The notes below the pieces were generated by a model. That model worked only from the letters and a program-made list of their open reading frames with translations. It was not told the DNA's origin and did no database searches. Shown in pieces: positions 17,906 through 38,770 of a stretch of 40,062 bases of DNA; the stretch's first letter is position 1; each line of letters begins with the position of its first letter. A program made the translations under genes and the position numbers. Source of the DNA: a virus (lineage: Duplodnaviria; Heunggongvirae; Uroviricota; Caudoviricetes); the IMG/VR virus record IMGVR_UViG_2671180458_000005; one strand, 5' to 3'.

Positions 17906-19177
17906 ATGAACAAAAAATTCTCTAAGACTATTCTTTCTTCTGTTGTTGCCGGACTGTTGCTGGTAAGTAGTGGGGGTGTTGCAAAAGAGATTGATATTGG
18001 TGGTAAATATAAAGTTATTCTGACAGAGGAAACAGGTTCGGCAAGGATTGTGGATATAAATACTAAAAAAGATTTATTTGATGGAATTATTAATGCGAAA
18101 ACAGGCACTGTTACTACTGTAAACAAAAAAGAGATTCAATCTGCTATAGATAGTTTTTATGCCGCTAACCCAAAAATAAATAAAGATGATCCAAACATTA
18201 AACAGATGGTGGCTCAGGCTGCTGGTAATTCGGGGCGTTATACAGTCTCTTTACCCAGTGGGCTCCCTTCGTTAACGACTGAAAATATTTTCAATCTAAA
18301 AGTGACTGATATTGAAAAAATAAAATCTAATATTGATGGTGTTAATTCAGTTATCACCAGTAAAACTGCAAAAGATTACAATATTGCTATCAGTAACGGC
18401 ATGAGTTCAGAAGCTGCGCTAACAGCGGCTAAAGATGGTAATGGAGCGCTGTTACAGGAATTCAACCGTCTCGGCACAAATGTAAATGACCTGAAAAATG
18501 CCACTACATTTGCTCTTGATGAAAATGGTGAAATTACCTATGAAAAAGGAGTGGAAAGCATTCCTGTTAAGGATGTGGTTGCAGAGGTAAAAGCCGATAC
18601 AACAATTCGTAAGAACAAAGATGGCAGCTATACCCTGGATCAGACCGCGCCTGATACTGTTCGTGTGAACGCTGCAATTGTTGATCTGGATAAAAATCTG
18701 AAAGACAGAACCACTGTTGGCGTGAATTCAGACGGCAGCCTGACCACTGCTGAAGGAGCCACAAAAACTGTTGCGGTAAGTGAAGGCCTTGTTTCCCTGT
18801 CGGGAAGAACTGGCCGTATTGATGCTGCGGTTGGTGGCATTGACACCCGTGTCACCAAAAACACTCAGACTATCCAGAATCACTCCCGCCAGCTGCAGGA
18901 GCATAACGCGCGGCTGAACAGTCAGCAGCGTCAGATTCGTGAAAACCACGAAGAAATGAAACGTGCTGCTGCACAGAGTGCGGCACTGGCAGGTTTGTTC
19001 CAGCCGTACAGTGTGGGTAAATTCAACGCCACGGCAGCACTGGGTGGTTACAGTGACAAACAGGCTATGGCCGTTGGTGTGGGTTACCGCTTTAACGAGC
19101 AGACAGCAGCCAAAGCAGGTATTGCAGCCAGCGACGGTGATGTATCCTACAACGTTGGTGTGAACTTCGAGTTTTAA
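17906..19177 (+). CDS. Trimeric autotransporter adhesin with YadA-like C-terminal anchor (Eib-like family)
   Basis: 423 aa; N-terminal signal peptide; coiled-coil stretch ([42 protein letters not shown]); C-terminal beta-barrel anchor ending NVGVNFEF; low-GC, AT-rich upstream region. Confidence 0.65.
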
Positions 19178-21970: not shown

Positions 21971-24415
21971 TTAAAAATCAGCCTGATTTGGGAACAGTTT
22001 TTGCCAGATAGCTGAAACGTATTTTGCCTGGTAACGCGCATCGTGCAGGGCATTATGGCGTTCACCCTCAAATGTGGTGACGTTGCGGGCATCGAAATCC
22101 ATCACCAACCCCAGAGCGACCATCGTTCTTACATCGCGATCATTGGTGTAACGCCACGGGCAGGGGATCTCCTGCCGTTCATATGAACGGCGTAAAATCA
22201 CGTTGTCGAAGTTGGCTCCATTTCCCCAGACCTGAACAAAAAACTCACCGGAGTTTTCGTCTATAAATTCCCGTAATTGTAAAAGCGCATCATCAAGCGG
22301 TATTCGATCAGCTAAAATGGCGGCACGGGCTTCGCCAGAGCGTTGAAGCCACCATTCGATGGTGCTTATGTCTACAGTGCCGCCACATGTACCCATATCA
22401 ATTATTTTGCTGAATTCAGGCCCCTGCTCTCCGGTTTGTGGATCGAAAAATACAGCGCCTATTGAGGCTATTGGTGCGTCAGGATTTTTGCCCATTGTTT
22501 CAAGGTCAATCATCAGATGGTGCCACAACCTGCTGGTGGATGTGATTTCACGATGACCGTTCACCTTAATTAAGAGATTTGCTGTCTCGCCTGTTTCATT
22601 ATTGCCATTGGCATGTTGATCGCCTTCGGTGCACTCCTTGTTCGGGAGTCCGGCACTTTCCATTTCCTCCGGATCTTTTTCCCGGGCTTCATCCTGGCTT
22701 TCTTCGTTGAATGTCTCCTGGTATGTTGCGTCGCCCATCACCGCGCCACAGTCAGGACAGTTGCCGCCGCCGGTCTGACCGCAGGCTGTGCAGACTTTTT
22801 CCGGTTCCTGTTGCGCTACTGGTTCAGGCTGTTTCGTTTCTGGCTCGTTTTGTTGCGCATTTGGACTGTGTTGTTCCGCTTTATGGCCTTTCTGTTCCGT
22901 TTCTTGCTGGTTATGGTTCACAGAATCGCGGGTTTCAATCCCCTTCACCCATTTTGGATCATTCGGGTCGCTAATCCCTTCAACAAATTCTCCGTGAGAA
23001 GCAGCCAGTAATTTATCTGCATCGACAGGATTTTTGGGTGGAATGTTTTTCCTGGCTTCATAGAGTTCTGCACGCAGTTTCTGATATTTCGCATCAACAG
23101 AATTTATCTGTGGCTGAGCATTCATCGACTGCGTGTCCTGATTATGTTCAGTTGTATCCGGTTCCACTGCTTCAGTCGTTGCCTGTTCATCTGCCATTGC
23201 GCCAGATGGCTGCGGTTTTTCTTCATCATCCTGTTTTCCTTCTTTTGTTACACGCTGCGGCATTGGAGCAGAGGAGCGACCGCAGGCAATATCCACGATT
23301 TCTGGATCAGGGTTGGCATGGTCGGTTTCGGTCAGTACTTTGTTCAGATATTCGGTAACACGGTGGGGAGTAGCCTCGATACCAATTGGTGCTTCTTTCA
23401 CGGACGCAACCACTATCGCGCGGGAATAATCCAGGTGACCAGGCATGGCGATGAATTTGTCACGAAAAACAGAAAAGGGCGGCTTATTCTCTGAAACGAT
23501 TTCTTCAATGCGTTTGGCGTGTGCCGGATGTGGATTGTAAATATCGATGTCCATTGAACGGGCCAGAACGCCAGCGGCAACGTCACGTTCCACTGACGCA
23601 TCATCGTGGACAAAACCTTCACCGCGATCGGTAAGAATTCCTCCGCCAGCATTAGCGCCGGATGGCGTGCGGCTGATGCGTAAAGCACGATTTCCTTTCA
23701 TCCACTCTTTTGTCAGCAGACCTCGATCGGTATAGTCAGCGTCCAGGTATGCTTCGAAAAAAGCAGTCATTAACCCCAGACTGGAATTAACGGGATTAGG
23801 GAAAACTTTGTCTGTGTCGCGTACCAGTTTGTGAAGGTCGCGAATCTCCAGCGGGTCGAGCAGCTTTGTGTTGTGGGAAATAGCCAGGGCAGTAACAGCA
23901 GGCAGTTCTTCAGCTCGTGCGATATGTAATGCCTGAAGTTCTTCCCGTGAAACGTGCGTTACCGGTTTTTCGCTGCCATGTTGCGCAAGCCAGCGAATGG
24001 GCAGTTCCTGACCGGAAATCGGCAGGAGCATATTATCCTCAATCTCAGCCATGTCTTCGCCATTGACGTTGGTATTGTCAGTGCTGGCTGGTTTGTCCTG
24101 AACTGAGGGGGAAGGCGCTATAAATATCATTGTGATGCCATCTTCTCCGCCTTTTTCATAGCGGTTGCAGAATTCGGTATCAAACACACCTTCAGGCGGC
24201 AGGTCATTAACAATGGGCAAATTCACGCGAACAGGTTTTTTGAAATCCTCTTCGTCAAATCCAGCATCGTCCATTGCGACAACACCCCGTGATATTGCAA
24301 CCGATAATTTTTTTGCTGTGCGCCAGTAAAAACCGCCTTTAATCCCAAGGCGTTTTCTGACTTTGTCATTTTTGGCTTCGTAATACAGTGCAATTTCTTC
24401 TTTATCAGTGCTCAT
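21971..24415 (-). CDS. Large exonuclease with C-terminal DnaQ-like DEDDh 3-5 exonuclease domain and central zinc-ribbon motif
   Basis: 814 aa; C-terminus has MIDLETMG (Exo I-like) and [15 protein letters not shown] (Exo III-like) motifs; [16 protein letters not shown] Cys4 motif; acidic linker; N-terminal part resembles prophage proteins annotated exodeoxyribonuclease VIII (recalled). Confidence 0.7.
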
Positions 24416-24507: not shown

Positions 24508-24696
24508 TTATCCAGCCGGTATTTCGTTATTCAGGTACAGCGATACTTTGTTTAACGGGAGACATTCACCGGAAATTTTTTGCTCGTCTCTTGCCTGATG
24601 GCAGGATTCTTTACTGGCATAAATTCCGGTAATCACATTCTGTGGCTCACCCGTTATAAGAAAAACAGTCATTACCAGTGCAAATGCAGAAGTCAC
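24508..24696 (-). CDS. Small membrane protein, YdfD-like
   Basis: 62 aa with N-terminal hydrophobic helix; ATGA overlap with DicB-like gene upstream; synteny with dicB-ydfD of Qin prophage (recalled). Confidence 0.5.
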   Translation of the reverse strand: MTSAFALVMTVFLITGEPQNVITGIYASKESCHQARDEQKISGECLPLNKVSLYLNNEIPAG

Positions 24697-24881
24697 TGCT
24701 GCCCCCCGAAAATACCAAGTTTAAGAAGGGCAATTCTGGAGAGTATGGAATTATCATTGAGAAGATAAGGCTCATATTTTCTCATCTTAATGGCATCTTC
24801 AGTAAACTCCCGGTTACTGAGCAGAACACCAATATCAAAACACCCTTCAGACGTATTAACGTTTGGTAATAACGTTTCCAT
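24693..24881 (-). CDS. dicB: Cell division inhibitor DicB homologue
   Basis: 62 aa METLLPNVNTSEGCFDIGV...FTEDAI... closely resembles E. coli DicB N-terminus and length as recalled; dicF-like RNA upstream. Confidence 0.65.
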   Translation of the reverse strand: METLLPNVNTSEGCFDIGVLLSNREFTEDAIKMRKYEPYLLNDNSILSRIALLKLGIFGGQQ

Positions 24882-24891
24882 TATCGCGTCC

Positions 24892-25449
24892 TCAACAATG
24901 AATTTTTAGTAATTGCTCCACAGTCATATTTTTAATTGCGCTCCGGTTTACAAGAGTCCAGCCTTGTTTCTCCAGATAAAACTGGAAGGTATCCAGGGTG
25001 CAGACCATTGCGCCGTCCGGAACGGTTTCAGTGAATTTGATATTGCCGTGTTCGTCGAGACGGATAACCAGGGTACGTCCGTCCCCGTGAATCATTTTGT
25101 CGGGAGACGGGGCGTTATTCTGGCGCAGTTCTTTCTCCATGCGATCGAACTCAGCGATGTAGGCTTCTTTAAATGCAGCGGCTTTTTTGCCGGTGAAGCC
25201 CATCACCAGGAAAACGAAGCCGTTTTTGGTGATTTGGTACATTGGGAGTTTGCGACTGGTTGAGTCGGTATATTCGCTCGACACAAAATTGTGCTCAGTG
25301 AATTTTGCTGAACAGTCCAGATTGCGAATTTTATCCAACACTCGTTCGTGGCGTTTACCAAAGAACTCAGCGATCGCAATAGACGTAGTGACAGCGCGTC
25401 CATTTTCGATGGTTACGTCAGGGTGAGAAAGGGCAGGGATAGTAGCCAT
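24892..25449 (-). CDS. Rha-family phage regulatory protein
   Basis: Motifs FFGKRHERVLDKIRNL and PMYQITKNGFVFLVMGFTGKKAAAFKEAYIAEFDRME fit Rha family; start set at internal ATG 25449 (GAGG upstream); the longer ORF to 25746 crosses a hairpin plus T-run, so the true start is uncertain. Confidence 0.6.
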   Translation of the reverse strand: MATIPALSHPDVTIENGRAVTTSIAIAEFFGKRHERVLDKIRNLDCSAKFTEHNFVSSEYTDSTSRKLPMYQITKNGFVFLVMGFTGKKAAAFKEAYIAEFDRMEKELRQNNAPSPDKMIHGDGRTLVIRLDEHGNIKFTETVPDGAMVCTLDTFQFYLEKQGWTLVNRSAIKNMTVEQLLKIHC

Positions 25450-25929
25450 GATGGCAGCCTCGATAGTCAGTTTAAATAACTCACCACCAAGGCTTTCCAC
25501 GACCATAAGGGTGGTGAGACGTACAGGGGTGGAAATACCGGTGACTACCGAAACCGGCCAGCCTTTCGGCTGCCCTGCACGCCCCACCATAATCTGAATG
25601 TGGCTGTGCATTACGCATAAAAAAACCGCCTGAGCGCGGTTATGCGCAGTAGTCATCATCGGGTTTCCACGCCCGGCACCCGCTTTATGAGGTGCAGGTG
25701 CACTATAATTCCACCCATTCTGGTTTTCAATAGCTACATTCAACATTTTCTCTTACCCTTCATCACCGAAGTGAACTTTGTTGATGCAGTGCCTGGTGCC
25801 TCCAGGTGACGTTAACCAGTTAACAATTAACGCCGGATTGTTAGTTGATGTCTGTTACGCCAGTAAAAGACCGCTTGTTTTAACTGTTCCGCGTGCGCTT
25901 AGCCGCATTCACCGCATCACAAAATTCAC

Positions 25930-25992
25930 TTTAAAAAGGGTGGCAGAGCAGTCACGGAGTAGAACTGATGCCACCAAAGACTACACATGGGT
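25930..25992 (-). ncRNA. dicF: DicF-like small RNA
   Basis: Minus strand reads ...UCAGUUCUACUCCGUGACUGCUCUGCCACCCUUUUU, near-identical to the 3-prime two-thirds of E. coli DicF as recalled, including terminator hairpin and U-run; downstream flank also matches; 5-prime end less conserved and not mapped. Confidence 0.65.
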
Positions 25993-26241: not shown

Positions 26242-26394
26242 TCAGTTAGTGTTTCTGGCTAACCAGCGACGCGCGCCAGCTTCGGTTTTAAACTTTTTAC
26301 TTTTGGTATACGTCATCGCGGTAAACGTGCCGTCCTGGTTAGGGAACACACCGCATACCAGAGATTCGTTGTTGCCAAGATTGAGCGTATCCAT
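26242..26394 (-). CDS. Hypothetical small protein, first ORF downstream of the leftward promoter
   Basis: 50 aa MDTLNLGNNESLVCGVFPNQDGTFTAMTYTKSKKFKTEAGARRWLARNTN; not in ORF track; no family recognised. Confidence 0.4.
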   Translation of the reverse strand: MDTLNLGNNESLVCGVFPNQDGTFTAMTYTKSKKFKTEAGARRWLARNTN

Positions 26395-26577
26395 GTTGAC
26401 CTCATTTACCCTTAACGCCGGGTCGCGGAACTAAAAACCTGCTGCGCTGTTATACAAAGTGTTCCCGCCGTCATGTTCATACGCCTCGGGCTGGCTACTT
26501 AACCCCTTGCCACTGCCGGGTAACTCGAAGTATTGCCTGGCGTTCTGTGGGGCGGAGTGGGTTGGTGAGTGCAATCT

Positions 26578-26616
26578 ACAATTAAAAACTGTTTTGTGTC
26601 AACAGTTTTTAATTGT
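26578..26616. promoter_or_regulatory. Operator palindrome (OL-like) containing a leftward promoter
   Basis: ACAATTAAAAACTGTT-TTGTGTC-AACAGTTTTTAATTGT; on minus strand a perfect TTGACA -35 sits in the centre with TAGATT about 18 nt downstream; near-identical palindrome at 27612..27650. Confidence 0.65.
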
Positions 26617-26667: not shown

Positions 26668-26955
26668 TCAGATAGAGAAGGGAAATTGTCGGCGAGCATG
26701 TGTCACGCTTACAATCTCAATGCTTGAAGCAGCTACTCTGTACAGGATTATGTAGTTAGGGTGGGTCACTATCTCTCTCAACCCAGAAACCCGTTCGCTT
26801 GGTGGATATAGGTACGGATGCTCAGATAGAGGTAATACCGATGTTTCAATACGTATTTTAAGTCTACGCGCTGCCGGTGGGTTCTCCTTGGCGATGTAAG
26901 TTATGATCTGACGCAAATCATCGCGAGCAGATGGTAGCCATAAAATGGGCAACAT
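26668..26955 (-). CDS. ParE/RelE-family type II toxin
   Basis: 95 aa; start codon overlaps antitoxin stop by 1 nt; sequence pattern typical of ParE toxins (recalled). Confidence 0.7.
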   Translation of the reverse strand: MLPILWLPSARDDLRQIITYIAKENPPAARRLKIRIETSVLPLSEHPYLYPPSERVSGLREIVTHPNYIILYRVAASSIEIVSVTHARRQFPFSI

Positions 26956-27146
26956 TACTCGCTCCTGTTAGTTACAGCAATTTGAGCAATAAGATTTTCC
27001 ATTTCAGCTATTACCTCGTCATGTGGAATTGCAGGGCGAGGGTCTGCAAGGCTTGACGCTACTTTAGCGCGCAACCATTCGTTGTAACTGTTTTCTTGTT
27101 CGATAGTTTCGAATTCTGAAACTATCGGAGAAAGGGCTGTACTCAT
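26955..27146 (-). CDS. Small antitoxin, PaaA2-like
   Basis: 63 aa MSTALSPIVSEFETIEQENSYNEWLRAKVASSLADPRPAIPHDEV...; size and sequence resemble PaaA2 of the E. coli O157 paaR2-paaA2-parE2 module as recalled; translationally coupled to toxin. Confidence 0.6.
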   Translation of the reverse strand: MSTALSPIVSEFETIEQENSYNEWLRAKVASSLADPRPAIPHDEVIAEMENLIAQIAVTNRSE

Positions 27147-27173
27147 GGCATAACTCCTCTTCTTGTACTGTGG

Positions 27174-27575
27174 TCACGCCCGGCGGCTTTTTTGTGCCGC
27201 CAGCCACCGGGCAATGGTTTCTTCCATTGATTTTTTTTTGTCTTTGATTTCTTGAAGCATTTTTTCTTGGTCCTCCTCAGGGAACGCACTAAAAGCCTGG
27301 AGTAATTCGCGTTGGCGAGGACCAATTTTCATCGTGTTAGGGGTGAACATTTGCTCCCCCTCTTCAGGAGGCAATAAAAACCAATGCAACGGATGCCCTG
27401 TAACCTCAACCAGTTTATCCAAACTTGAGGCTTTAGGTGTAGCCTTACCGCTGACCCATTGTTGAACAGTTTGTTGTGTCACACCAATTCTACGGGCCAG
27501 CTCAGCCTGGCTCCATCCAGTTTCCTGAAGAAGCTTGCTGATTCTGTACATCGATACTTCTAGGGCGCTCATCAT
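27174..27575 (-). CDS. XRE-family HTH repressor (prophage repressor / PaaR-like regulator)
   Basis: HTH segment WSQAELARRIGVTQQTVQQWVSGK; divergent from cro-like gene across an operator palindrome; no LexA-type autocleavage motifs seen; start (MMSALE or MYRIS) uncertain, no SD. Confidence 0.7.
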   Translation of the reverse strand: MMSALEVSMYRISKLLQETGWSQAELARRIGVTQQTVQQWVSGKATPKASSLDKLVEVTGHPLHWFLLPPEEGEQMFTPNTMKIGPRQRELLQAFSAFPEEDQEKMLQEIKDKKKSMEETIARWLAAQKSRRA

Positions 27576-34590: not shown

Positions 34591-34965
34591 ATGTGTATAG
34601 AGTTTGTTTTGCCTTACCCGCCGACGGTGAATACTTACTGGCGACGTCGTGGCAGCACATATTTTGTATCAAAAGCCGGGGAGCGTTATCGCCGGGCAGT
34701 GGCGTTTATTGTTCGCCAGCAGCGACTGAAATTAAGCCTGTCCGGACGGCTGGCAATAAAAATTATTGCAGAGCCACCGGATAAGCGTCGTCGTGACCTG
34801 GACAACATTCTGAAAGCACCGCTGGATGCGCTGACGCATGCGGGACTGCTTATCGACGATGAACAGTTTGATGAAATCAATATTGTACGTGGTCAGCCAG
34901 TATCTGGTGGACGTCTGGGGGTGAAGATTTACCCCATAATGCTTGAAGGGCAGGTCAAAAAATGA
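34591..34965 (+). CDS. rusA: Holliday junction resolvase RusA
   Basis: LPYPPTVNTYWRRRG and DKRRRDLDNILKAPLDALTHAGLLIDDEQ motifs; start ATG 34591 behind AAAAGGGGGG. Confidence 0.8.
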   Translation: MCIEFVLPYPPTVNTYWRRRGSTYFVSKAGERYRRAVAFIVRQQRLKLSLSGRLAIKIIAEPPDKRRRDLDNILKAPLDALTHAGLLIDDEQFDEINIVRGQPVSGGRLGVKIYPIMLEGQVKK

Positions 34966-35783
34966 AACTGGAAGATTTACCGAAATACTACTCCCCAAAA
35001 TCCCCCGGCCTGACTGATGCATCGGCCTCAACGTCAAAAGATGCGCTGAGTATCACTGATGTGATGGCCGCGCAGGGCATGACACAGAATCGGGCTGAGA
35101 TGGGGTTTTCTGCGTTCCTTGGGAAAATGGGCATTAGTATGAATGACAGAGAGCGGGCAACAGAATTGCTGACAGAATATGCACTCAGTCGGTGTGATCG
35201 CGTGGCGGCGTTAAGAAAACTCCCGGCAGAAATAAAACCGGCAGTGATGCGTATTATGGCTTCGTATGCGTTTGAAGATTATGCCCGTAGCGCGGCGAGC
35301 AAAAAACAGTGCCCCTGCTGTCACGGAAAAAAATTTATTGAAAGCGAGGTTTTTACAAACAAGATCCAGTATCCGGATGGTAAGCCGCCAGTGTGGGCAA
35401 AGTGCACAAAAGGCGTGTATCCGTCTTACTGGGAGGAATGGAAAAAAGTCAGGGAGGTGGTAAAAGTTGCCTGTCCGGAGTGTGGCGGAAAGGGGGAGGT
35501 TTCCACCGCCTGTAAAGATTGTCGTGGGCGCGGTGTTGCCATTCATCGTGAAGAGTCGGAAAAACAGGGTGTGCCGGTTTTCAGAAACTGCCAGCGTTGT
35601 GGTGGGCGTGGCTATGAAAGATTACCTTCAACGGAGGCATTTAATGCCATATGTAATGTAACCGATGCCATATCTCTTGATACATGGAAAAAAACAGTTA
35701 AACGTTTTTACGATACGCTGGTGGTGCAGTTTGATATTGAAGAAGCATGGGCAGAACAACAACTGAAAAAGGTGACCAGATAG
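34962..35783 (+). CDS. Late-gene antitermination protein Q (multi-zinc-finger type)
   Basis: 273 aa with several CxxC pairs; ATGA overlap with rusA; followed by late promoter-like region and terminator. Confidence 0.65.
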   Translation: MKLEDLPKYYSPKSPGLTDASASTSKDALSITDVMAAQGMTQNRAEMGFSAFLGKMGISMNDRERATELLTEYALSRCDRVAALRKLPAEIKPAVMRIMASYAFEDYARSAASKKQCPCCHGKKFIESEVFTNKIQYPDGKPPVWAKCTKGVYPSYWEEWKKVREVVKVACPECGGKGEVSTACKDCRGRGVAIHREESEKQGVPVFRNCQRCGGRGYERLPSTEAFNAICNVTDAISLDTWKKTVKRFYDTLVVQFDIEEAWAEQQLKKVTR

Positions 35784-37455: not shown

Positions 37456-37531
37456 GGCCCTTTAGCTCAGTGGTGAGAGCGAGCGACTCATAATCGCCAG
37501 GTCGCTGGTTCAAATCCAGCAAGGGCCACCA
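37456..37531 (+). tRNA. tRNA with CAU anticodon (Ile2-lysidine type or Met), ileZ-like
   Basis: 76 nt; acceptor GGCCCTT/AAGGGCC; anticodon loop CTCATAA; T-loop GGTTCAAATCC; ends CCA. Confidence 0.8.
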
Positions 37532-37540
37532 TATCACATA

Positions 37541-37617
37541 CCGCCATTAGCTCATCGGGATAGAGCGTCAGCCTTCGAAGCTGGTTGCGCGGGGTTCGAG
37601 TCCTCGATGGCGGTCCA
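37541..37617 (+). tRNA. tRNA-Arg (anticodon UCG), argN-like
   Basis: 77 nt; acceptor CCGCCAT/ATGGCGG; anticodon loop CTTCGAA; GGTTCGAGTCC T-arm; ends CCA. Confidence 0.7.
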
Positions 37618-37630
37618 TTATCGGTATTCA

Positions 37631-37707
37631 GCGTTGTTAGCTCAGCCGGACAGAGCAATTGCCTTCTAAGCAATCGGTCACTGGTTCGAATCCAGTACAA
37701 CGCGCCA
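37631..37707 (+). tRNA. tRNA-Arg (anticodon UCU), argO-like
   Basis: 77 nt; acceptor GCGTTGT/ACAACGC; anticodon loop CTTCTAA; GGTTCGAATCC T-arm; ends CCA. Confidence 0.8.
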
Positions 37708-37721
37708 TATTTATTTACCAG

Positions 37722-37746
37722 GCTCGCTTTTGCGGGCCTTTTTTGT
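37722..37746 (+). terminator. Possible terminator after tRNA cluster
   Basis: GGCTCGC-TTTT-GCGGGCC imperfect hairpin followed by TTTTTT. Confidence 0.45.
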
Positions 37747-37876
37747 ATCCGCGCCACGCCCGGCGCATATCAACCACAGAGCCTTTCGGGGGTGAGCTTA
37801 CGGAGTGGTCAGTGTGACTTTCTCTGTGGGCAGATCGCTCCCGGGCGTTGGCTCACCCACCTAAAGGAACGTCACG

Positions 37877-38308
37877 ATGTTTGGTATTTTCAAAAAGAAA
37901 ACCCGCAGAGCAGCAGCGGAAATTAAAAAGTTTGAGAAACGTGATCTGGCACAGGCGGTTATTAATGCTGCCTACCTGGTAGCCTATGCAGATGGTGAAT
38001 GTGAGGCTTCAGAGAAAGCGAAGATCGAGCAGGTCTTGCGTAACCAGCCAGCGTTGTCCGCGTTTACGTCAGAAATTAATGCTATCAGTGCCACGATCAC
38101 AGGTCAGCTTGACACCAACTTTAAAATTGGTCGTCGAGCGGCGTTGCGTGAAATTGAAGATGTGAAACACGATACGCGTGAAGCGGAAGATGTGCTGGAT
38201 GTGGCGGTGGCCATTGCTGAAGCAGATGGTGAAATTGAGCCGGAAGAGCGTAAGGTTCTGGAAGAGATTGCTGGTGTTCTTGGCCTGCGACTGGAGAACC
38301 ACCTGTGA
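37877..38308 (+). CDS. TerB-like domain protein
   Basis: 143 aa; two AxADGE motifs (AYADGECEASEKAKI and AEADGEIEPEERKVLEEI) typical of TerB fold; AAAGGA RBS. Confidence 0.6.
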   Translation: MFGIFKKKTRRAAAEIKKFEKRDLAQAVINAAYLVAYADGECEASEKAKIEQVLRNQPALSAFTSEINAISATITGQLDTNFKIGRRAALREIEDVKHDTREAEDVLDVAVAIAEADGEIEPEERKVLEEIAGVLGLRLENHL

Positions 38309-38469: not shown

Positions 38470-38717
38470 CCGGGTATCAGTCATGCCCCGAAAATTTTAA
38501 ATGTCTCACAATTCAGACGGTTGACAGTTGTCTGTTTTGCGGGGAGTTTGTTAAAAGAAACAGGCATGGTGAATCCCCCTGAGCGGAGGGGCGACTGGTG
38601 CATTAGGTGTTATCTTTGATACCCAGGAAAGTAAACGCGCGGGTTTGGTGGCACCGGGCTGAACTCACCGGGAGGCACCCGGCATCATGCGCATGATGAT
38701 ACAGATACGCGGCTTTA

Positions 38718-38741
38718 GCCCCTCTCCGGAGGGGCTTTTAT
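38718..38741 (+). terminator. Rho-independent terminator
   Basis: GCCCCTC-TCCG-GAGGGGC followed by TTTTATAT. Confidence 0.6.
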
Positions 38742-38770
38742 ATGAATTTTGTAAGATATGAGTAAACTAA

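What the first reader, a model, noticed from the sequence alone, without database searches (positions are those of the whole stretch)
24508..25992. dicF-like sRNA, Rha-family gene, dicB-like and ydfD-like genes: a Qin-type division-inhibition/exclusion module in the leftward early operon
The minus strand at 25930..25992 carries a sequence nearly identical to the 3-prime part of DicF sRNA (ftsZ-targeting) with its terminator, followed by a 62-aa DicB-like protein and a 62-aa YdfD-like membrane protein. DicB is known to inhibit division via MinC and to block ManYZ-dependent phage DNA entry. Unlike Qin as I recall it, a Rha-family gene is interposed between dicF and dicB. A hairpin plus T-run at 25616..25640 (minus) lies inside the long form of the Rha ORF.
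Basis: partly seen in the sequence, partly recalled or inferred. Interest (0 to 1): 0.55.

Follow-up and report, generated by a model that had tools for sequence, protein, structure and literature searches.

The report
dicBF module with embedded antirepressor RNA switch
This phage's cell-division-inhibitor operon (DicF RNA, DicB, YdfD-like protein) is real, and the extra "Rha gene" between dicF and dicB is a complete, self-promoted small-RNA switch (IsrK plus C4 antisense RNA) that most likely controls an antirepressor; every part is a known kind and the layout occurs in about 7% of complete E. coli genomes.

Summary
On the minus strand lie DicF (25989-25938, Rfam 61 bits), a Rha-domain gene, DicB (24881-24693, Pfam 124 bits, 61% identical to K-12) and a DUF1482/YdfD-like protein (24696-24508, 48% identical to K-12 YdfD). 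They sit in the leftward early operon of a lambdoid phage.

It is a Gifsy-1 isrK-type / P1 immI-type cassette:
- a sigma-70-like promoter (25730-25702)
- C4 antisense RNA (25594-25507)
- a leader ORF fused in frame to rha
- the Rha protein, whose likely start is ATG 25449

Two C4 segments (a', b') pair with sites in IsrK and with the rha Shine-Dalgarno region. Across 38 distinct related sequences these six patches are hypervariable and covary (12 a' and 6 b' variants). The upstream "long form" of the ORF shows no codon periodicity.

The Rha C-terminal domain matches the AnrP antirepressor family. No strong terminator separates rha from dicB.

The dicF-to-isrK junction occurs in 388 of 5426 complete E. 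coli genomes. I found no paper describing it. All parts are ordinary; the combination is a modestly interesting mosaic variant.

The parts
26573..26602 (-). Sigma-70-like promoter (TTGACA-18-TAGATT) downstream of the ParE-like gene. Candidate PL/dicBp equivalent for the leftward operon.
   Evidence: Consensus scan only, 10 of 12 matches. Its position matches dicBp upstream of ydfA in K-12 (PMC10448788). Function is inferred.
26242..26394 (-). YdfA homologue (DUF1391, 50 aa), first gene of the dicBF-type operon. ydfB and ydfC are absent.
   Evidence: Pfam PF07151 at 101.8 bits. 86% nucleotide identity to K-12 ydfA.
25938..25989 (-). DicF sRNA with its terminator hairpin. A T-run follows, to about 25933.
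   Evidence: Rfam RF00039, 61.1 bits, E 3.7e-11. 37 of 41 identical to the K-12 DicF 3' part, with one compensatory stem change.
25772..25937 (-). Conserved dicF-dicB spacer, also present in K-12 Qin. Contains a sub-threshold STnc100-like similarity.
   Evidence: Lies within the ~79%-identical block shared with K-12 L002 3155-3592. STnc100 hit of 31.2 bits against a gathering score of 47.
24907..25771 (-). About 865 bp that K-12 Qin lacks: the isrK-C4-rha cassette.
   Evidence: Homology to K-12 stops at 25772 and resumes at 24906. The junction sequences can be read directly.
25702..25730 (-). Sigma-70-like promoter TTGAAA-17-TATAGT, 7 nt upstream of the IsrK 5' end (PisrK equivalent).
   Evidence: Consensus scan, 10 of 12 matches. 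The flanking sequence is 91-100% conserved across the related loci. A PisrK promoter was shown experimentally in Gifsy-1 (PMC4825925).
25619..25695 (-). IsrK sRNA. It carries C4 target copies b1 (25670-25664) and a1 (25655-25647).
   Evidence: Rfam RF01394, 63.5 bits, E 1.9e-11. Terminator found by the scan. Complementarity to C4. Covariation across loci.
25507..25594 (-). C4 antisense RNA (STnc1160 equivalent). Specificity segment a' is C4 nt 39-53 and b' is nt 60-66.
   Evidence: Rfam RF01695, 79.3 bits, E 4.4e-14, full-length match. Predicted fold -49.3 kcal/mol.
25450..25590 (-). Leader ORF of 47 codons, homologous in position to Gifsy-1 orf45. Its AUG is C4 nt 5-7, and here it is fused in frame to rha. 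It contains C4 targets b2 (25500-25494) and a2 (25469-25455); a2 covers the GAGG Shine-Dalgarno of ATG 25449.
   Evidence: The Gifsy-1 orf45 frame and start were identified (PMC4825925). The ORF is fused and open in 34 of 38 distinct variants. There is no codon periodicity. The a'-a2 helix is 15 bp.
24892..25449 (-). Rha-domain protein, short form of 185 aa. It combines an N-terminal Rha domain with a C-terminal domain shared with AnrP-type antirepressors. Predicted antirepressor.
   Evidence: Pfam PF09669 at 105 bits. Multiple PHROG anti-repressor families match, and aa 100-172 match phrog_2379 at E 9.5e-9. AnrP itself is a full-length phrog_2379 member. Third-codon-position excess of 36/29/81 variable columns. 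The GAGG-N8-ATG start context is kept in all 38 variants, with only scattered spacer substitutions.
24693..24881 (-). DicB homologue (62 aa). Its ATG lies 10 nt after the rha stop, with the same Shine-Dalgarno/leader sequence as K-12 dicB.
   Evidence: Pfam PF05358 at 124.4 bits. 61% identical to K-12 DicB. The leader sequence is shared with K-12.
24508..24696 (-). YdfD-like DUF1482 protein (62 aa). Its start overlaps the dicB stop by 4 nt.
   Evidence: Pfam PF07358 at 57.2 bits. 48% identical to K-12 YdfD, which RefSeq annotates as 'lysis protein'.

Best explanation
The region is the dicBF-type segment of the leftward (PL-like) early operon of a lambdoid E. coli phage. A self-contained riboregulated antirepressor cassette of the Gifsy-1 isrK / P1 immI kind is nested between dicF and dicB.

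Shown by sequence and comparison:
- The order on the minus strand is ydfA, DicF with terminator, conserved spacer, sigma-70-like promoter, IsrK with terminator, C4 RNA, leader ORF fused to rha, dicB, then the ydfD-like gene.
- Two C4 segments, a' and b', are complementary to a1/b1 inside IsrK and to b2/a2 in the rha leader. a2 covers the rha Shine-Dalgarno sequence.
- These six patches covary across related phages.

Inferred mechanism:
1. Transcripts from the internal promoter mostly stop at the IsrK terminator and yield IsrK.
2. Read-through transcripts, or transcripts arriving from PL, are processed to give C4.
3. C4 pairs with b2/a2 and blocks rha translation, as P1 c4 does for icd/ant.
4. 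IsrK, which carries mimic sites a1/b1, pairs with the C4 sequence and relieves the block, as IsrK does for orf45-anrP in Gifsy-1.
5. Rha (Rha N-domain plus AnrP-like C-domain) then acts as an antirepressor against a phage repressor and promotes induction.
6. DicF (through ftsZ mRNA), DicB (through MinC/FtsZ and ManYZ) and the YdfD-like protein act as their K-12 homologues do. Because no strong terminator lies between rha and dicB, they may also be fed by the cassette promoter.
For: Identity of the parts:
- Rfam hits above gathering score for DicF, isrK and C4.
- Pfam hits for DicB, DUF1482, Rha and DUF1391.
- Identities to K-12 of 61% for DicB and 48% for YdfD.
- Extra segment relative to Qin mapped to 24907-25771.
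- Promoter TTGAAA-17-TATAGT 7 nt upstream of IsrK, and the IsrK terminator.

RNA pairing:
- C4 nt 39-53 pair over 15 bp with 25469-25455, which includes the GAGG 8 nt before ATG 25449.
- C4 UUUCCAC pairs with GUGGAAA at 25500-25494 and at 25670-25664.
- C4 CGGUAGUCA pairs with 25655-25647.

Covariation in 38 distinct sequences from 80 related loci:
- Variation is concentrated in exactly these patches.
- There are 12 a' and 6 b' variants.
- Cognate a'-a2 helices average 10.9 bp against 5.6 bp for non-cognate pairs. For b'-b2 the figures are 7.5 and 4.1.
- Permutation test: 0 of 100,000 permutations reach the observed value for a'-a2 and a'-a1, and about 3 in 1,000 do for b'.

Comparison with Gifsy-1:
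- Gifsy-1 has the same RNA order: isrK, c4-a1b1, C4, then anrP.
- Experiments there show a promoter, terminator read-through, a processed ~80-nt RNA, IsrK-dependent translation of orf45-anrP, and prophage induction by AnrP (PMC4825925).

Coding evidence:
- The Rha C-terminal domain matches the AnrP family phrog_2379.
- The rha CDS shows codon periodicity and the upstream extension does not.
- The leader ORF is open and fused in 34 of 38 variants.
Against: - Nothing was measured. No transcripts, processing, pairing, translation starts or protein activities were observed.
- The promoter is only a consensus match, and the scan found no more promoter-like sites in the region than in shuffled sequence.
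- The N-terminal domain of the cargo protein (Rha) differs from AnrP (ORF6N) and from P1 Ant. Whole-protein similarity to AnrP is weak: 23% over 75 aa, pairwise E 0.006. Rha-family proteins are also annotated as transcriptional regulators.
- In Gifsy-1 the authors attributed control to IsrK opening an mRNA structure, not to C4 (STnc1160) repression. Constitutive STnc1160 did not counteract IsrK there (PMC4825925), so the repressor role of C4 is by analogy with P1.
- Here the leader ORF is fused to rha rather than separate, so an N-terminally extended protein cannot be excluded.
- The DicF 5' end differs from K-12.
- The DicB C-terminal half and the YdfD-like protein are diverged.
Confidence: 0.72

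Rival explanations
1. This is a Qin-type division-inhibition/exclusion operon into which an ordinary Rha-family regulatory gene, read as one long 284-aa ORF, has been inserted. The internal hairpin is incidental or an attenuator.
For: - RefSeq annotates exactly this 284-aa 'Rha family phage regulatory protein' and no RNA genes in a 99%-identical prophage.
- The long ORF matches PHROG phrog_995 end to end, and its N-terminal part matches Pfam Phage_ASH at E 4e-20.
- The long frame is open in most variants.
Against: - The N-terminal 99 codons coincide with two full-length Rfam RNA genes.
- A promoter lies downstream of the long-form ATG.
- Variable columns in the extension show no third-position excess (20/17/20), against 36/29/81 in rha proper.
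- The variable patches covary to keep RNA pairing.
- Frameshifts upstream of the leader AUG occur in natural variants.
- Typical Rha proteins begin at the short-form start: phrog_518 aligns aa 12-113 to profile positions 15-116.
Confidence: 0.06
2. The cassette is an insulated moron. IsrK and C4 act only on rha, or IsrK acts as a trans-acting Hfq sRNA on host targets. The cassette is transcriptionally and functionally unrelated to dicF, dicB and ydfD, which are expressed only from the repressor-controlled PL-type promoter, as in K-12.
For: - The same isrK-C4 cassette sits in other genomic contexts, upstream of antirepressor, Ant, Rha and Icd-like genes. Examples are after Q in Gifsy-1 and at other positions in Stx phages, ST64B and phiP27.
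- In several related loci rha is not followed by dicB.
- K-12 dicB works without the cassette (PMC10448788).
Against: - Between the rha stop (24892) and the dicB ATG (24881) the scan finds only one weak 5-bp hairpin with a T-run, and that lies inside rha.
- Gifsy-1 ends its operon with the IsrJ terminator, which is missing here.
- The last four rha codons and its stop codon are supplied by the conserved dicB leader.
- PL-derived transcripts must cross the cassette to reach dicB, so some coupling is unavoidable.
Confidence: 0.17
3. The module is a decaying relic. The DicF-like RNA and the diverged DicB and YdfD-like proteins are no longer functional, and the RNA-family hits merely reflect recent common ancestry.
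For: - The DicF 5' 11 nt differ from K-12.
- DicB is only 61% and the YdfD-like protein only 48% identical to the K-12 proteins.
- Qin itself is a cryptic prophage.
Against: - The window carries an apparently complete lambdoid gene set: tail genes, integrase, exonuclease, repressor, replication genes and Q.
- All ORFs in the module are intact with full-length Pfam matches.
- The DicF terminator stem carries a compensatory change.
- The cassette shows ongoing covariation across at least 16 specificity types.
- The layout is kept in nearly all of 80 related loci and in 388 genomes.
Confidence: 0.05

Closest known systems
dicBF operon of cryptic prophage Qin, E. coli K-12 (ydfABC-dicF-dicB-ydfDE)
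   Same: - Same order and strand logic: a repressor-side promoter, ydfA, DicF with its terminator, a conserved spacer, dicB with an identical leader and Shine-Dalgarno sequence, and ydfD overlapping the dicB stop.
- The DicF 3' part matches at 37 of 41 positions.
   Different: - ydfB and ydfC are absent.
- About 865 bp carrying the isrK-C4-rha cassette lie between the spacer and the dicB leader.
- The DicF 5' end is unrelated.
- DicB is 61% and YdfD 48% identical.
- The repressor region carries a PaaA2/ParE-type toxin-antitoxin pair.
Gifsy-1 isrK-orf45(STnc1160)-anrP-isrJ locus of Salmonella (Hershko-Shalev et al. 2016, PMC4825925)
   Same: - Same RNA architecture: own promoter, a 77-nt IsrK with terminator, then C4/STnc1160.
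- The leader ORF starts at the same AUG inside the C4 5' end.
- The downstream gene's Shine-Dalgarno sequence is complementary to the C4 a' segment.
- The cargo C-terminal domain belongs to the same PHROG family.
   Different: - Location: the PL operon between dicF and dicB here, against downstream of Q in Gifsy-1.
- The cargo N-domain is Rha here and ORF6N in AnrP.
- The leader ORF is fused in frame here instead of ending in an overlapping stop/start.
- There is no IsrJ terminator, so dicB-ydfD follow directly.
- No adjacent antQ.
immI operon of phages P1/P7 (c4-icd-ant1/2)
   Same: - A C4-family antisense RNA is processed from the same transcript as its target.
- There are two recognition segments with target copies both upstream (a1b1) and downstream (a2b2).
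- The downstream copy covers a ribosome-binding site.
- Sequence differences in these segments define heteroimmune types (established knowledge: Citron & Schuster 1990; Biere et al. 1992; summarised in PMC6906374).
- The cargo is an antirepressor.
   Different: - There is no Icd homologue and no P1-type Ant.
- The a1b1 copy is part of a terminated sRNA (IsrK).
- The setting is a lambdoid, not a P1, genome.
- There are many more specificity types than the classic P1/P7 pair.
P4 immunity region (seqA-CI RNA-seqC)
   Same: The CI-type RNA is flanked by complementary sites. The Gifsy-1 authors call IsrK a structural homologue of SeqA (PMC4825925). The Pfam 'Ash' family hit covers this RNA region.
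   Different: P4 CI causes premature transcription termination of replication genes. Here the downstream target overlaps a Shine-Dalgarno sequence and the cargo is an antirepressor-like protein. This was not tested.

Membership tests
DicF sRNA (Rfam RF00039) | Covariance-model match above the gathering score, over the full length | tested here: met
   61.1 bits against 48, model positions 1-52 of 52, E 3.7e-11.
DicF sRNA (Rfam RF00039) | Conserved 3' region that pairs with the ftsZ ribosome-binding site, plus a Rho-independent terminator | tested here: met
   37 of 41 identical to K-12, a 20-nt identical run, a compensatory change in the stem, and a T-run. PMC5069750 states that the 3' region is the ftsZ-pairing part.
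DicF sRNA (Rfam RF00039) | Conserved 5' end, used by K-12 DicF to pair with xylR (PMC5069750; my notes also list pykA, but the excerpt I read states only xylR) | tested here: not met
   The first 11 nt are unrelated to K-12. PMC5069750 assigns xylR pairing to the 5' end.
DicF sRNA (Rfam RF00039) | Represses ftsZ translation; processed by RNase E/III from the operon transcript | not testable with these tools
   The RNAduplex energy against the K-12 ftsZ leader was no better than for shuffled sequences (-33.9 against a mean of -32.4), so that computation is uninformative.
DicB (Pfam PF05358) | Full-length HMM match; a 62-aa protein directly downstream of dicF in a prophage early operon | tested here: met
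   124.4 bits, positions 1-62 of 62. 61% identical to K-12 DicB, with the conserved part mostly N-terminal.
DicB (Pfam PF05358) | MinC-dependent division block and inhibition of ManYZ-dependent phage entry | not testable with these tools
   Known for K-12 DicB (PMC6832061). The C-terminal half is diverged here.
YdfD / DUF1482 (Pfam PF07358) | HMM match; a ~62-aa protein with a hydrophobic N-terminus overlapping the dicB stop | tested here: met
   57.2 bits. 48% identical to K-12 YdfD. 4-nt overlap with dicB. Lysis activity was not tested.
IsrK sRNA locus (Rfam RF01394; Gifsy-1 type) | Covariance-model match above the gathering score, with a Rho-independent terminator | tested here: met
   63.5 bits against 50, model positions 1-77 of 77. 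Terminator stem 25641-25624 plus seven T.
IsrK sRNA locus (Rfam RF01394; Gifsy-1 type) | Own promoter immediately upstream | tested here: inconclusive
   TTGAAA-17-TATAGT lies 7 nt upstream and is conserved in relatives. This is a consensus match only, with no transcript data.
IsrK sRNA locus (Rfam RF01394; Gifsy-1 type) | Followed by C4/STnc1160, a leader ORF starting inside the C4 5' end, and an antirepressor gene | tested here: met
   Same order and same AUG as Gifsy-1 orf45. The leader is fused rather than separate.
C4 antisense RNA / P1 immI-type control (Rfam RF01695, RF03163) | C4 covariance-model match | tested here: met
   79.3 bits against 45, full length.
C4 antisense RNA / P1 immI-type control (Rfam RF01695, RF03163) | Two C4 segments complementary to target copies upstream (a1b1) and downstream (a2b2), with the downstream copy at a ribosome-binding site | tested here: met
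   Helices of 15, 9, 7 and 7 bp. Covariation across 12 a' and 6 b' variants with permutation support. The c4-a1b1 model itself is sub-threshold here, at 24.6 bits against 46.7.
C4 antisense RNA / P1 immI-type control (Rfam RF01695, RF03163) | Cargo genes icd and P1-type ant | tested here: not met
   There is no Icd or P1 Ant domain. The cargo is Rha N-domain plus an AnrP-like C-domain.
Rha family (Pfam PF09669) | Rha domain HMM match above the cut-off | tested here: met
   105.3 bits against 29.9.
AnrP-type antirepressor (PHROG phrog_2379) | Full-length similarity to AnrP; antirepressor activity | tested here: inconclusive
   Only the C-terminal aa 100-172 match (E 9.5e-9). Pairwise identity to AnrP is 23%, E 0.006. 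The AnrP N-domain is ORF6N. Activity is not testable.
Ash protein family (Pfam PF10554) | A real protein-coding N-terminal domain | tested here: not met
   The HMM matches aa 14-109 of the long ORF at E 4e-20. That stretch is the IsrK and C4 RNA genes and shows no codon periodicity.

The most novel reading that the evidence does not exclude
The nested cassette rewires the division-inhibition/exclusion genes. No strong terminator separates rha from dicB, and PL transcripts must cross the cassette. On this reading, dicB and ydfD expression, and not only the antirepressor, would be gated by the IsrK/C4 RNA switch from a repressor-independent promoter. When C4 blocks translation, Rho-dependent polarity would also shut off dicB-ydfD. 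The combinatorial a'/b' 'address codes' (at least 12 by 6 variants) would let several co-resident prophages keep their induction, division-block and exclusion circuits insulated from one another, or let them cross-talk.
Probability: 0.25. Interest if true: 0.55.

Novelty: new variant of a known kind. Interest (0 to 1): 0.35.

Why it matters
DicF and DicB are the best-studied examples of prophage genes that reprogram host division, metabolism and phage resistance. Their regulation has been worked out only for K-12 Qin, where control is by DicA, Rem and RNases.

About 7% of complete E. coli genomes, many of them Shiga-toxin-producing strains, carry a version in which an RNA-controlled antirepressor cassette sits inside the operon. 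If the cassette feeds or gates dicB-ydfD, then filamentation, superinfection exclusion and prophage induction would be coupled through an sRNA switch.

The data also have practical consequences for annotation:
- RefSeq annotates a 284-aa 'Rha' protein that swallows two RNA genes.
- The Pfam 'Ash' family appears to be a conceptual translation of those RNAs.

The many covarying a'/b' types extend the classic P1/P7 heteroimmunity principle to lambdoid prophages.

Tried and rejected
1. RNAduplex of DicF against the K-12 ftsZ leader gave -33.9 kcal/mol, against a mean of -32.4 for shuffled sequences. It was uninformative and I dropped it. I relied on sequence identity of the published ftsZ-pairing 3' region instead.

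2. I first took the 45-aa ORF at 25618-25481 to be the orf45 homologue. I rejected this. It is truncated to 2 aa in the commonest variants. Gifsy-1 orf45 lies in the other frame and starts at C4 nt 5-7. The matching frame in the window is the one fused to rha.

3. The long 284-aa Rha/Ash protein was rejected on codon-position statistics and RNA covariation.

4. I asked whether the conserved dicF-dicB spacer or the DicF precursor region is an HK022 put-like antiterminator. No HK022 match appeared in a blastn search of the phage collection. The only hint is a sub-threshold STnc100 similarity. This is left open.

5. I asked whether the P1 'dicF-like region' lies next to P1 immI, which would make the DicF-C4 association old. 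It does not; it lies in the ban operon leader.

6. I looked for literature describing the composite arrangement (DicF/DicB with Rha or antirepressor; IsrK with C4) and found none.
Full report
**Context.** The window reads as a lambdoid phage genome in vegetative gene order.
- Tail genes (tape measure, J, tail fibre) occupy about 3.6-16.5 kb.
- An integrase lies at 21709-20684 and a RecE-like exonuclease at 24415-21971.
- Next come the region in question, a 133-aa HTH repressor (27575-27174) followed by a PaaA2/ParE-type toxin-antitoxin pair, and rightward replication genes.
- Q is at 34962-35783. It is followed by a methylase, three tRNAs, a TerB-domain ORF and STnc100.
- The finding region is 99% identical to a prophage of a human STEC isolate.
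- The features therefore lie where a PL-type leftward early operon is expected.

**Observation.**
- Rfam finds DicF at 25989-25938 on the minus strand (61.1 bits, gathering score 48, E 3.7e-11, full model).
- Aligned with K-12 dicF, the 3' 41 nt match at 37 positions. They include a 20-nt identical run that covers the loop and the 3' stem arm.
- One stem pair is changed on both sides, which keeps the terminator hairpin. The first 11 nt are unrelated to K-12.
- Published work places ftsZ pairing in the DicF 3' region and xylR pairing in the 5' end (PMC5069750). Only ftsZ regulation can therefore be inferred.
- DicB (24881-24693) is a full-length Pfam match and 61% identical to K-12 DicB.
- The 62-aa DUF1482 protein (24696-24508) is 48% identical to K-12 YdfD, which RefSeq calls a lysis protein.
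- The Rha domain sits at aa 120-205 of the 284-aa ORF.
- The hairpin plus T-run is at 25641-25619.

**What the interposed DNA is.** In K-12, dicF and dicB are 174 nt apart.
- Homology between the window and K-12 runs through DicF and a conserved spacer to 25772. It resumes at 24906, in the dicB leader.
- The intervening ~865 bp contain two further full-length Rfam RNA genes: isrK (25695-25619, 63.5 bits) and C4 antisense RNA (25594-25507, 79.3 bits).
- A sigma-70-like promoter, TTGAAA-17-TATAGT, ends 7 nt before the IsrK 5' end.
- Gifsy-1 of Salmonella has the same order: isrK (overlapping the c4-a1b1 motif), C4, the antirepressor gene anrP, then isrJ.
- Experiments in Gifsy-1 showed a PisrK promoter, partial read-through of the IsrK terminator, and a processed ~80-nt RNA (STnc1160). 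They also showed IsrK-dependent activation of orf45-anrP translation and prophage induction by AnrP (PMC4825925).

**RNA-RNA wiring.** Within the window, C4 pairs with four sites.
- C4 nt 39-53 (a') form a 15-bp helix with 25469-25455. That target includes the GAGG located 8 nt upstream of ATG 25449.
- C4 nt 60-66 (b', UUUCCAC) match GUGGAAA at 25500-25494 (b2) and again at 25670-25664, inside IsrK (b1).
- C4 nt 45-53 match 25655-25647, inside IsrK (a1).
- This is the P1 immI design, known from the literature on P1/P7 c4. There, two c4 segments recognise a target copy upstream and a second copy covering a ribosome-binding site downstream. Small differences in these segments make P1 and P7 heteroimmune (summarised in PMC6906374).
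- The c4 and c4-a1b1 motifs were catalogued by Weinberg et al. 2010.

**Evolutionary test.** A scan of viral contigs with the Rha protein returned 80 loci at 78-100% identity.
- Nearly all show the same layout: dicF, spacer, promoter, isrK, C4, rha, then usually dicB, ydfD and exo.
- The 38 distinct isrK-to-rha-start sequences are almost invariant except in six patches. Those patches are exactly a1, b1, a', b', b2 and a2.
- They define 12 a' and 6 b' variants in 16 combinations, and each variant matches its own targets.
- The longest ungapped helix averages 10.9 bp for cognate a'-a2 pairs against 5.6 bp for non-cognate pairs. For b'-b2 the figures are 7.5 and 4.1 bp.
- In 100,000 permutations of partners, none reached the observed value for a'-a2 or a'-a1, and about 0.3% did for b'-b2 and b'-b1.
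- This is strong evidence that C4 contacts both IsrK and the rha leader, and that the pairing defines specificity types.

**Which ORF is real.** RefSeq annotates the 284-aa form and no RNA genes. Its N-terminal part even hits the Pfam 'Ash' family. Several observations argue against that form.
- Its ATG (25746) lies upstream of the cassette promoter.
- Its first 99 codons are the IsrK and C4 genes.
- Across relatives, variable columns there are spread evenly over codon positions (20/17/20 outside the patches). In rha proper they show the coding signature (36/29/81).
- The GAGG-N8-ATGGCTACT start context is kept in all 38 variants, including one with an unrelated upstream region.
- Typical Rha proteins start at this point.

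The frame upstream of ATG 25449 nevertheless stays open in most variants.
- The explanation came from Gifsy-1. Its orf45 starts at an AUG that is C4 nt 5-7 and ends in a stop overlapping the anrP AUG.
- The same AUG in the window (25590-25588) is in the rha frame with no stop. The leader ORF is therefore fused to rha (47 codons).
- This fusion is kept in 34 of 38 variants even though the encoded residues vary freely.
- A 45-aa ORF in another frame (25618-25481), which I first mistook for orf45, is not conserved.

**The cargo protein.** The N-terminal 108 aa are a widespread Rha domain. The C-terminal ~75 aa vary among phages.
- PHROG families annotated as anti-repressors match both parts.
- Residues 100-172 match phrog_2379 (E 9.5e-9), the family to which AnrP belongs over its full length.
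- Direct similarity to AnrP is weak, and the AnrP N-domain is ORF6N, not Rha.
- The antirepressor role is therefore an inference from domain sharing and from the identical regulatory cassette.
- That cassette also precedes genes annotated as antirepressor, Ant, Rha or Icd-like in Stx phages, ST64B and phiP27.

**Most likely mechanism** (inferred steps are marked).
1. Shown by sequence: the parts list and the pairing scheme above.
2. Inferred: the internal promoter makes IsrK. Read-through or PL-derived transcripts yield C4.
3. Inferred: C4 occludes b2/a2 and the rha Shine-Dalgarno sequence.
4. Inferred: IsrK, carrying the mimic sites, pairs with the C4 sequence and permits leader and rha translation.
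5. Inferred: Rha antagonises a repressor and promotes induction.
6. Inferred by homology: DicF, DicB and the YdfD-like protein act as in K-12. DicF targets ftsZ mRNA (PMC5069750), DicB blocks division and inhibits ManYZ-dependent phage entry (PMC6832061), and YdfD causes lysis.
7. Open question: the scan finds only one weak terminator-like hairpin (5 bp, inside rha) between rha and dicB. The last rha codons are supplied by the conserved dicB leader. The cassette may therefore also feed or gate dicB-ydfD.

**How common, and how new.**
- The dicF-spacer sequence occurs in 4647 of 5426 complete E. coli genomes.
- The K-12-like direct dicF-dicB junction occurs in 4002 genomes. The dicF-promoter-isrK junction occurs in 388.
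- Earlier work noted that dicF occurs in varied prophage contexts (PMC5069750). I found no paper describing this composite.
- Every component belongs to a curated family, and lambdoid mosaicism is expected. I therefore rate this a new variant of a known kind, of modest interest.

Noticed in passing
window 25420-25707 (minus); the same stretch in L001: Pfam 'Ash protein family' (PF10554, E 4e-20) and several PHROG 'transcriptional regulator/repressor' families match the conceptual translation of the IsrK and C4 RNA genes. RefSeq annotates the 284-aa fusion (WP_000935583.1) and no RNA genes. The stretch shows no codon periodicity, so these protein families probably partly model an RNA locus.
   Followed up: partly
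window 25777-25926 (minus) and 38535-38747 (plus): A full STnc100 sRNA (139 bits) lies downstream of the tRNA/TerB block. The conserved dicF-dicB spacer, also present in K-12 Qin, gives a sub-threshold STnc100-like hit (31 bits, E 2e-4) that shares the CACCNGGAGGCACCNGGCAC hairpin. Its function is unknown. I found no similarity to HK022 put.
   Followed up: partly
window 26668-27575 (minus): The immunity region encodes a 133-aa HTH protein, a PaaA2-type antitoxin (PF21217) and a ParE toxin (PF05016) in one direction. This resembles the paaR2-paaA2-parE2 module of O157 prophages as I recall it. The prophage repressor and the toxin-antitoxin regulator may therefore be the same protein. A terminator-like hairpin (26649-26634) and a promoter-like site (26602-26573) follow.
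   Followed up: no
L004-L083 (IMG/VR loci), segments aligned: The a' and b' specificity segments assort independently. For example, the same a' occurs with three different b'. This gives 16 combinations among 38 distinct sequences and suggests recombination between the two recognition modules.
   Followed up: partly
window 37456-38308 (plus); P1 locus L085 5053-7084: Three tRNAs (CAT, TCG and TCT anticodons) are followed by a TerB-domain ORF. Phage P1 has a similar tRNA plus TerB-like (tciA) block downstream of its annotated 'dicF-like region' in the ban operon leader. That P1 region matches the DicF precursor region of the window (26100-26000) at 77%.
   Followed up: partly
window 21971-24415 (minus): The 814-aa exonuclease combines an N-terminal RecE/exonuclease VIII region with a C-terminal Rv2179c-like 3'-5' exoribonuclease domain (211 bits). 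They are separated by a long acidic, low-complexity linker.
   Followed up: no
window 17906-19177 (plus): A 423-aa ORF with a YadA-like membrane anchor domain lies between the tail-fibre genes and the integrase. It is probably a surface-adhesin moron.
   Followed up: no
window 25760-25783 and 24900-24925 (minus): The cassette is flanked by an imperfect short direct repeat (ACAAAGTTCA / TAAAAATTCA), and K-12 has a single copy (ACAAAATTCA). This fits either insertion or deletion through short homology. The direction was not resolved.
   Followed up: no
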